DNA from: Eledone cirrhosa
Lineage: Eukaryota
Length of the DNA: 64,000 nucleotides
NCBI GenBank assembly: GCA_964016885.1
Contig: OZ024761.1
Location: 7,812,001-7,876,000 of the forward strand
Reading direction: 5' to 3'
The translations under genes and the position numbers were made by a program. The notes beneath the pieces are model-generated. The model was not told where the DNA came from, did no database searches, and saw only the letters and a list, made by a program, of their open reading frames with translations. Of this stretch, positions 42,264-43,035 are shown in pieces; within the stretch, counting starts at the first letter, position 1, and each line of letters starts with the position of its first letter.

Positions 42264-42270
<7 letters not shown>

Positions 42271-43028
42271 AGATCAAAAGATGGTTAAAGGAGTTCCATG
42301 TATTTTATTATGCGCATTTCAAAAACAAACATCATCATGCAATAATATTTGTGTTTTCATCAGATAAAACAGGAGAACATGATATGAAGGCTAAAAAACA
42401 CTTGTGGATAGTGCAGTTTTAAATTAACATATGAAAAGTGGTTTTAGATTGATGTGTGATATTGGGAAAAATATTTTATTTAGAGAGGGAGGGTGGAAAG
42501 GATGAAAAAGGGGAGGAGATGAGAGGGAGAGATGGGTGATAGAGAGAAAGAGATAGTTTTTATAACTGAGAGGAGATATTTTGTTTTACATAGAGAGGTT
42601 GAAAACCGTTGGAAGATAATGTATAAATTAAAAGAATTTGAAAATTAACGTTAATTTTCAAATTCTTTTAATTTATACATTATCTTCCAACGGTTTTCAA
42701 CCTCTCTATGTAAAACAAAATATCTCCTCTCAGTTATAAAAACTATCTCTTTCTCTCTATCACCCATCTCTCCCTCTCATCTCCTCCCCTTTTTCATCCT
42801 TTCCACCCTCCCTCTCTAAATAAAATATTTTTCCCAATATCACACATCAATCTAAAACCACTTTTCATATGTTGATTTAAAACTGCACTATCCACAAGTG
42901 TTTTTTAGCCTTCATATCATGTTCTCCTGTTTTATCTGATGAAAACACAAATATTATTGCATGATGATGTTTGTTTTTGAAATGCGCATAATAAAATACA
43001 TGGAACTCCTTTAACCATCTTTTGATCT

Positions 43029-43035
<7 letters not shown>
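42264..43035. mobile_element. ~770-bp spacerless near-perfect palindrome between (TA)n tracts, with a hammerhead in each arm
   Basis: Centre aaaattaac|gttaatttt at 42649/50. One mismatch was noticed. Confidence 0.96.
42928..42998 (+). ncRNA. Minimal hammerhead with an intact core (mirror at 42301-42371, minus strand)
   Basis: tgttttat-CTGATGA-[16-bp stem II, 1 mismatch]-GAAA-t(gcgc)a-TA^-ataaaata. Confidence 0.85.

What the first reader, a model, noticed from the sequence alone, without database searches (positions are those of the whole stretch)
42264..43035. 770-bp spacerless palindrome with two identical intact hammerheads
Seen: ~386-bp arms with one noticed mismatch, no spacer, and (TA)n on both sides. 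A diverged single-arm relative at 51303-51430 keeps stem II paired, with a G-C base pair where this copy has A-U. Established: long perfect palindromes are unstable and form cruciforms. Inference: this is a very recent insertion or ongoing arm-to-arm conversion, and it is the best candidate for an active family.
Basis: partly seen in the sequence, partly recalled or inferred. Interest (0 to 1): 0.75.

Follow-up and report, generated by a model that had tools for sequence, protein, structure and literature searches.

The report
Folded-back stub of young Penelope retroelement
This mirror-image sequence is two back-to-back copies of the ribozyme-bearing end of a young, high-copy Penelope-type jumping gene, an ordinary footprint in this genome, except that here one end was likely re-copied from the other together with a little neighbouring host DNA.

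Summary
The palindrome is real as described: 386-bp arms, one mismatch, no spacer, (TA)n flanks, and a type I hammerhead core in each arm. Each arm is the last 386 nt of a 3.8-kb Penelope-like element (PLE). Its protein has the Hydra-clade motifs, and I found three intact 820-821-codon RT + GIY-YIG frames elsewhere in the genome. The family is young and large: 5,684 exact 3' ends. Spacerless palindromes are routine for it: 716 exact mirror junctions of a shorter form. The arms are no more alike than usual, so ongoing conversion is not needed. Head-to-head copies normally carry an 88-nt tail on exactly one arm (65 of 71 pairs), which fits priming from both DNA ends at two RNA sites. This scan noted that rule before on other repeats of this genome. 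This locus is an exception: no tail on either arm, and a rare left-flank motif repeated six times, inverted, on the right. Four of five tailless pairs show such DNA-level fold-back copying, one of about 3.3 kb of host DNA. Read support for the centre is weak (one short contig in 1 of 4 runs). A new family of a known kind with a modest mechanistic lead.

The parts
42264..42649 (-). Left arm: last 386 nt of the Hydra-type PLE (3' UTR and pseudo-LTR end), 5'-truncated, no tail
   Evidence: 98% to positions 3316-3709 of an intact copy, L100
42650..43035 (+). Right arm: the same 386 nt, no tail
42649..42650 (.). Head-to-head junction; 2-nt self-complementary CG overlap, no spacer; unique in the assembly
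   Evidence: 43-nt contig 42622-42664 in 1 of 4 runs
42928..42998 (+). Type I hammerhead with short palindromic stem III; predicted cleavage after 42990
   Evidence: activity untested
42301..42371 (-). Identical hammerhead on the opposite strand; predicted cleavage after 42309
   Evidence: coordinates by symmetry about the centre
42425..42425 (.). The single arm mismatch (partner 42874); the left arm carries the non-majority base
42207..42263 (.). Left target tract (TA)n with one GTG interruption (motif at 42219)
43036..43329 (.). Right (TA)n tract holding six inverted copies of the left-flank interruption (43082-43243)
51278..51590 (.). Older relative: pLTR arm 51278-51459 (-) with hammerhead 51328-51397, plus inverted tail-only arm 51513-51590 (+)

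Best explanation
The palindrome is a head-to-head pair of 5'-truncated 3' ends of a young Hydra-type Penelope-like retroelement inserted in (TA)n, and one outer end was likely rebuilt by a one-time fold-back DNA copy of the other. Shown: arm identity, family size, intact RT/GIY-YIG frames, the one-tail rule, and this locus's departure from it. Inferred steps: (1) the GIY-YIG cuts (TA)n on both strands. (2) Both 3' ends prime reverse transcription on the same RNA at two fixed sites, the pLTR end and the tail end 88 nt further on. (3) The two cDNAs join at their 5'-truncated ends through 1-6 nt of overlap; a symmetric join, as here at CG, would arise if both run off the same RNA 5' end. (4) Here a strand then folded back, copied the tailless arm and ran into the host (TA)n-CAC-(TA)9, slipped several times and rejoined in (TA)n, so the tail was lost or never made. 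The two hammerheads lie on opposite strands and are likely passengers: a read-through RNA is predicted to be one 384-bp hairpin that buries the ribozyme.
For: Family: arm maps to the 3' end of copies whose ORF has RT (YRDD) and a C-terminal EN. 5,684 exact tailless ends and 1,396 exact tailed ends. 29 of 40 loci taken from the start of the list are head-to-head with both ends, 32 of 40 if tail-only arms count. One-tail rule: 63 of 68 pairs by script; 65 of 71 after one reclassification and three added pairs; 44 of 45 by coordinates alone on C1. The tail sits on the shorter arm in about half the long pairs, e.g. L031, L077, L084, which a single snapped-back cDNA cannot give. Both arms share the subfamily base at alignment column 79 in 22 of 22 loci (7 T/T, 15 C/C; read). 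In vitro precedent: both strands cut and extended, two RT start sites bounding the tail (PMC11167929). Fold-back here: the 13-nt flank motif is in 0 of 167 other outward flanks, and in the window only once left and six times inverted right. Other tailless pairs: L123 about 40 nt of inverted flank, L128 about 3.3 kb at 99% with the copy on the shorter arm, L165/166 an internal junction duplicated in inverted form. Hairpin fold -662 kcal/mol, 384 pairs.
Against: Only five true tailless pairs; L122 shows no fold-back sign, and L165/166 has no flank copy beyond (TA)n. One tailed pair, L116, also has an 18-nt inverted flank copy. My one advance prediction could not be tested because the locus turned out to be tailed. 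One true tail/tail pair exists (L165). The timing of the fold-back (during or after integration) and which flank is native cannot be read at this locus. Part of the locus set was chosen by similarity to this arm or by junction, not at random. Hammerhead covariation does not exceed shuffles. The centre is covered by one 43-nt contig in 1 of 4 runs, below the tool's 31-nt-each-side bridging rule.
Confidence: 0.68

Rival explanations
1. Plain two-ended priming in which both cDNAs started at the pLTR end; no DNA fold-back, and the CAC units are chance microsatellite noise.
For: L122 is tailless on both arms with no flank copy. (TA)n tracts mutate fast (established knowledge).
Against: The motif occurs twice in 739 kb of other locus DNA holding 1,288 (TA)8+ tracts, and in 0 of 167 flanks. 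Four of five tailless pairs carry fold-back signs.
Confidence: 0.12
2. Sequencing or assembly artefact: reads or consensus folded back inside an ordinary tailed insertion and overwrote the right arm and flank.
For: Tailless pairs are rare (0 of 45 on C1 by coordinates). No contig spans the whole locus, and the outer ends were not covered by my two read layings. The best-matching runs may be the assembly's own sample.
Against: The arms differ at one base and unique DNA differs on each side. A 100%-identical contig crosses the centre at depth 10.2 and stops 15 nt past it, as expected for a mirror centre in a 31-mer graph (my inference). Other single-locus joints also showed in only one of three same-sample runs. 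L123 lies in an older, 87% subfamily with diverged arms.
Confidence: 0.12
3. Ongoing arm-to-arm gene conversion keeps an older insertion perfect.
For: Both arms share one base seen in no other of 69 copies.
Against: Sharing is the rule for new insertions in this family; the left arm keeps a private change; the arms differ from the family majority at only 2-3 sites.
Confidence: 0.05
4. A foldback DNA transposon or MITE whose middle was deleted.
For: Long inverted arms in TA resemble terminal inverted repeats.
Against: The inner DNA is RT + GIY-YIG, arms are variably 5'-truncated, the two ends differ by a tail, and partial tandems occur.
Confidence: 0.02

Closest known systems
Hydra clade of C-terminal EN+ Penelope-like elements (Craig et al. 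2021, PMC8557442; section 11, passages and supplement passages read)
   Same: Single ORF with RT and C-terminal GIY-YIG, DKT, CxCx5C linker, CxxC and CxH around E and N, hammerhead in the pLTR, (TA)n target.
   Different: 3.8-kb unit with about 1.2-kb 3' UTR against 'generally <3 kb'; RWT for RWK; about 80 extra N/S/T-rich residues before the linker; thousands of young copies. The listed cephalopod family Hydra-1_Obim (2,507 bp, 'no pLTR') has a different linker sequence by eye.
Inverted 5'-truncated PLE insertions with a one-sided tail (PMC3846280 passages; PMC8557442 Fig. 2 legend)
   Same: Head-to-head copies, palindromes at the inverted junction, tail usually on one end.
   Different: The tail is 88 nt rather than 30-40. 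This locus has no tail and carries an inverted copy of flank.
PAc Poseidon element in vitro (PMC11167929; parts 1-2 of 4 read)
   Same: AT-rich target cut and extended on both strands; two RT start sites bound the tail.
   Different: Other clade; head-to-head products and fold-back were not described in the parts I read.
Metazoan PLE minimal/dimer-type hammerheads (PMC4209133; results and discussion read)
   Same: Type I, long helix II, palindromic helix III; pairs 100-700 bp apart on opposite strands were already reported.
   Different: A-U rather than the conserved G10.1-C11.1 pair in the young subfamily (154 of 170 copies); 8-bp helix I.
L1 insertions with inverted duplication or foldback of target DNA (bioRxiv 10.1101/2024.12.14.628481; passages read)
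   Same: A self-annealed 3' end with 2-bp homology primes DNA synthesis and duplicates host DNA inverted at an insertion site.
   Different: Human L1 in cultured clones and tumours. Here a PLE in an assembled animal genome, with the element arm itself copied.

Membership tests
EN+ Penelope-like elements | Single ORF with RT and GIY-YIG endonuclease | tested here: met
   820-821-codon open frames in L075, L099, L100. Pfam gave no RT or GIY-YIG hit on the protein itself; 2 of 16 aligned members hit RVT_1 and 2 of 16 GIY-YIG; motifs conserved in the alignment.
EN+ Penelope-like elements | Pseudo-LTRs from partial tandems, 5' truncation, inverted 5' copy, one-sided tail | tested here: met
EN+ Penelope-like elements | Hammerhead motif in the pLTR | tested here: met
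   Core intact in 160 of 170 motif matches (the search pattern itself favours intact cores)
Hydra clade | DKT in place of DKG | tested here: met
   HSDKT in L100
Hydra clade | RWK motif near the N-terminus | tested here: inconclusive
   RWT here; RW is kept in 14 of 15 homologues, mostly as RWK or RWR
Hydra clade | CxCx5C linker; CxxC and CxH around conserved E and N; no CCHH | tested here: met
   CNCRIKNKC, CNLC-LNEK, INR, CLH; same linker pattern as the Hydra rows of the paper's supplement alignment, compared by eye
Hydra clade | Insertion into (TA)n | tested here: met
   flanks of 29 loci printed
Hydra clade | Placement in the Hydra clade of an RT tree | not tested
   No named reference sequences were held as data; the 150 homologues listed are unnamed
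Neptune clade | CX2-5CxxC linker and CCHH in the EN | tested here: not met
   Linker is CxCx5C (against PMC8557442 section 11); my first guess of Neptune was dropped
Naiad/Chlamys | N-terminal EN | tested here: not met
   EN is C-terminal
Active hammerhead ribozyme | Self-cleavage | not testable with these tools
   Needs an assay. Structure is kept in 98.5% of cells but covariation is not above shuffles
Non-LTR retrozyme | Non-coding tandem monomers | tested here: not met
   The arm is a fragment of a coding element and is not a tandem array here

The most novel reading that the evidence does not exclude
Penelope integration has a second, minor route: in roughly 1 of 15-20 two-armed insertions a DNA strand folds back, replaces the tailed arm with a copy of the tailless arm and carries host DNA along (tens of bases to over 3 kb). 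A young Hydra family with thousands of copies would then be a steady source of inverted host duplications and long hairpin RNAs in this animal, and this locus is one such event.
Probability: 0.45. Interest if true: 0.6.

Novelty: new member of a known kind. Interest (0 to 1): 0.38.

Why it matters
How Penelope-like elements make their inverted copies is still open. This family offers intact enzymes, a defined RNA end and thousands of footprints, so two-ended priming and the fold-back exception can both be tested. Hydra elements have few described families, and a young high-copy one is a useful model. The palindrome itself is not rare in this genome.

Tried and rejected
Rfam scan: only low-complexity miRNA matches among the rows shown. 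Pfam on the element's own protein: no RT or EN hit. PDB profile search: only retron-type RT at E about 0.8. Neptune assignment: dropped after the motif check. Single-cDNA snap-back as the general route: rejected, since tails often sit on the shorter arm. 3' transduction as the source of the L128 duplication: disfavoured, because the copy ends inside a minisatellite that continues on one side only. Two apparent tailless pairs were false: L144 (tail broken by an insert) and L164 (tail variant). Sequencing runs: no RNA holder listed. The centre was not seen in X2, X3 or X6, which is uninformative. The left-arm private base could not be resolved from contigs. A direct genome-wide count of end-type pairs was not obtained; the counts rest on listed subsets.

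Full report
Observation. The palindrome is centred on 42649|42650 with no spacer. The arms (42264-42649, 42650-43035) differ at one position, 42425/42874. Each arm carries the same type I hammerhead, pointing outward: an 8-bp stem I, CUGAUGA, a long stem II, GAAA, the self-complementary AUGCGCAU and an AUA triplet. The relative near 51.3 kb has G-C where this copy has A-U, as reported, but it also has a tail-only second arm at 51513-51590. Rfam showed no hammerhead in the 150 of 183 rows listed.

Identity. The window is C22:7812001-7876000 of a 3.0-Gb genome. The arm has 897 first-look candidates, and the 40 scored are 99-100% identical. [quoted passage not shown] Three of 40 fetched 10-kb regions hold intact 820-821-codon frames (L075, L099, L100), two of them behind an upstream pLTR with hammerhead. 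The window's arms match positions 3316-3709 of the 3,791-nt unit cut from L100. The protein has DKT, RWT, a CxCx5C linker and CxxC/CxH around E and N. These are the features given for the Hydra clade in PMC8557442 (section 11), and the linker matches the Hydra rows of its supplement by eye. A library search gave 405 relatives at E up to 1e-30, best about 40% identical, all unnamed. No tree with named references was built. The supplement was cut when stored, so unseen parts may list closer families. That the host looks like an octopod cephalopod is my recollection of such repeat landscapes, not a result.

How ordinary the shape is. Exact counts: 5,684 tailless 3' ends, 1,396 pLTR+tail ends, 1,344 exact 60-nt ends of the young subfamily. 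I fetched 40 loci from the start of the list (a few entries skipped or merged, one added by choice). Of these, 29 are head-to-head with both ends found by script and three more have a tail-only second arm. A 5' hotspot at the hexamer CATATG gives 716 exact spacerless mirror junctions. The 386-bp version here has a junction unique in the assembly. One arm difference is typical: 11 of 28 within-locus comparisons differ at one site, range 1-9 (set biased towards young copies). Inverted PLE copies, junction palindromes, one-sided tails and opposite-strand hammerhead pairs are in print (PMC3846280 passages; PMC8557442; PMC4209133).

The standard route. Of 68 pairs in 96 loci, 63 have the 88-nt tail on exactly one arm, 5 on neither and none on both. 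L144 is really tailed, and three later pairs add one of each type, giving 65, 5 and 1 of 71. Pairing coordinates alone on C1 (100 tailless, 95 tailed ends) gave 44 mixed pairs, 1 tail/tail and 0 tailless. The tail is often on the shorter arm, so the second arm is not normally a copy of the first. Both arms share subfamily bases (22 of 22 loci at column 79, read), which points to one RNA or one source. This fits the in vitro result that a Poseidon protein cuts and extends both strands and starts at two sites bounding the tail (PMC11167929). Two-ended priming on one RNA is inference. Earlier notes of this scan reached it on other repeats of the genome; they are not independent support.

The exception. 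The window has no tail on either arm. Its left (TA)n tract has one GTG interruption, and the right tract has six inverted copies of that 13-nt motif. The motif is in 0 of 167 other outward flanks and occurs twice in 739 kb of other locus DNA. Other tailless pairs show related signs. L123 repeats about 40 nt of flank inverted. L128 repeats about 3.3 kb at 99-99.7%, ending inside a minisatellite that continues on the long-arm side, so the short arm is the copy. L165/166 repeats an internal junction inverted, which requires a DNA template. L122 shows nothing, and one tailed pair (L116) has an 18-nt inverted copy. The first four tailless pairs against the tailed ones give Fisher p = 0.0003, a post hoc figure with the window included. 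My advance prediction failed to be a test. I infer a one-time fold-back synthesis, during or after integration. Comparable inverted duplications are reported for L1 (bioRxiv 10.1101/2024.12.14.628481, passages). Five paper searches did not list a report of this for PLEs; subscription papers and preprint supplements were not searchable.

Artefact check. Public contigs were laid twice. One run, X1, holds a 43-nt, 100%-identical contig at depth 10.2 over 42622-42664, ending 15 nt past the centre. X2, X3 (same sample) and X6 do not. Other single-locus joints also appeared in one run only. The contig is below the tool's bridging rule, and X1 may be the assembly's own sample, so this is weak support. 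The outer ends are untested by reads.

Ribozymes. Cores are intact in 160 of 170 matches, and the young subfamily has A-U at 10.1-11.1. Pairing is kept across 20 variants but covariation is not above shuffles. The palindromic stem III suggests dimer-dependent cleavage (PMC4209133). Here the two copies are on opposite strands, and a read-through RNA is predicted to fold as one 384-pair hairpin, so cleavage at this locus is unlikely (inference).

Verdict. Real, and a new young family of a known clade. The shape is a known footprint. The worthwhile residue is the rare tailless fold-back class with inverted host duplication, which rests on five loci.

Noticed in passing
window 44634-44700 (+): A hammerhead of a different family with the same stem I, a palindromic AUAUAUAU loop III and a tail-like stretch downstream; similar copies in other loci.
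   Followed up: partly
window 39123-39455 (+) and 45969-46395 (-): Old fragments similar to this family's endonuclease region, 35-40% identity.
   Followed up: no
L128 (G000:C1 about 35310900-35320600): Tailless head-to-head insertion flanked by an inverted duplication of about 3.3 kb of host DNA at 99-99.7%.
   Followed up: yes
L111, L112, L126, L145-L159: A short non-coding form (about 175-bp arms plus one tail, centred on CATATG) with at least 716 copies; the hotspot may mark the RNA 5' end.
   Followed up: partly
L100 reverse strand 3200-4230: A second, more distant Penelope-like ORF remnant just upstream of the intact copy.
   Followed up: no
L120 flanks; L085 left flank: Direct repeats of flank sequence next to insertions, possible long target-site duplications.
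   Followed up: no
window 33769-34334 and 61205-61770: 566-nt inverted pair, 85% complementary, 27 kb apart; probably two copies of a dispersed repeat.
   Followed up: no
window 1-6000 and about 56000-60000: Long stretches of extreme strand skew, probably simple satellites.
   Followed up: no
   Followed up: no
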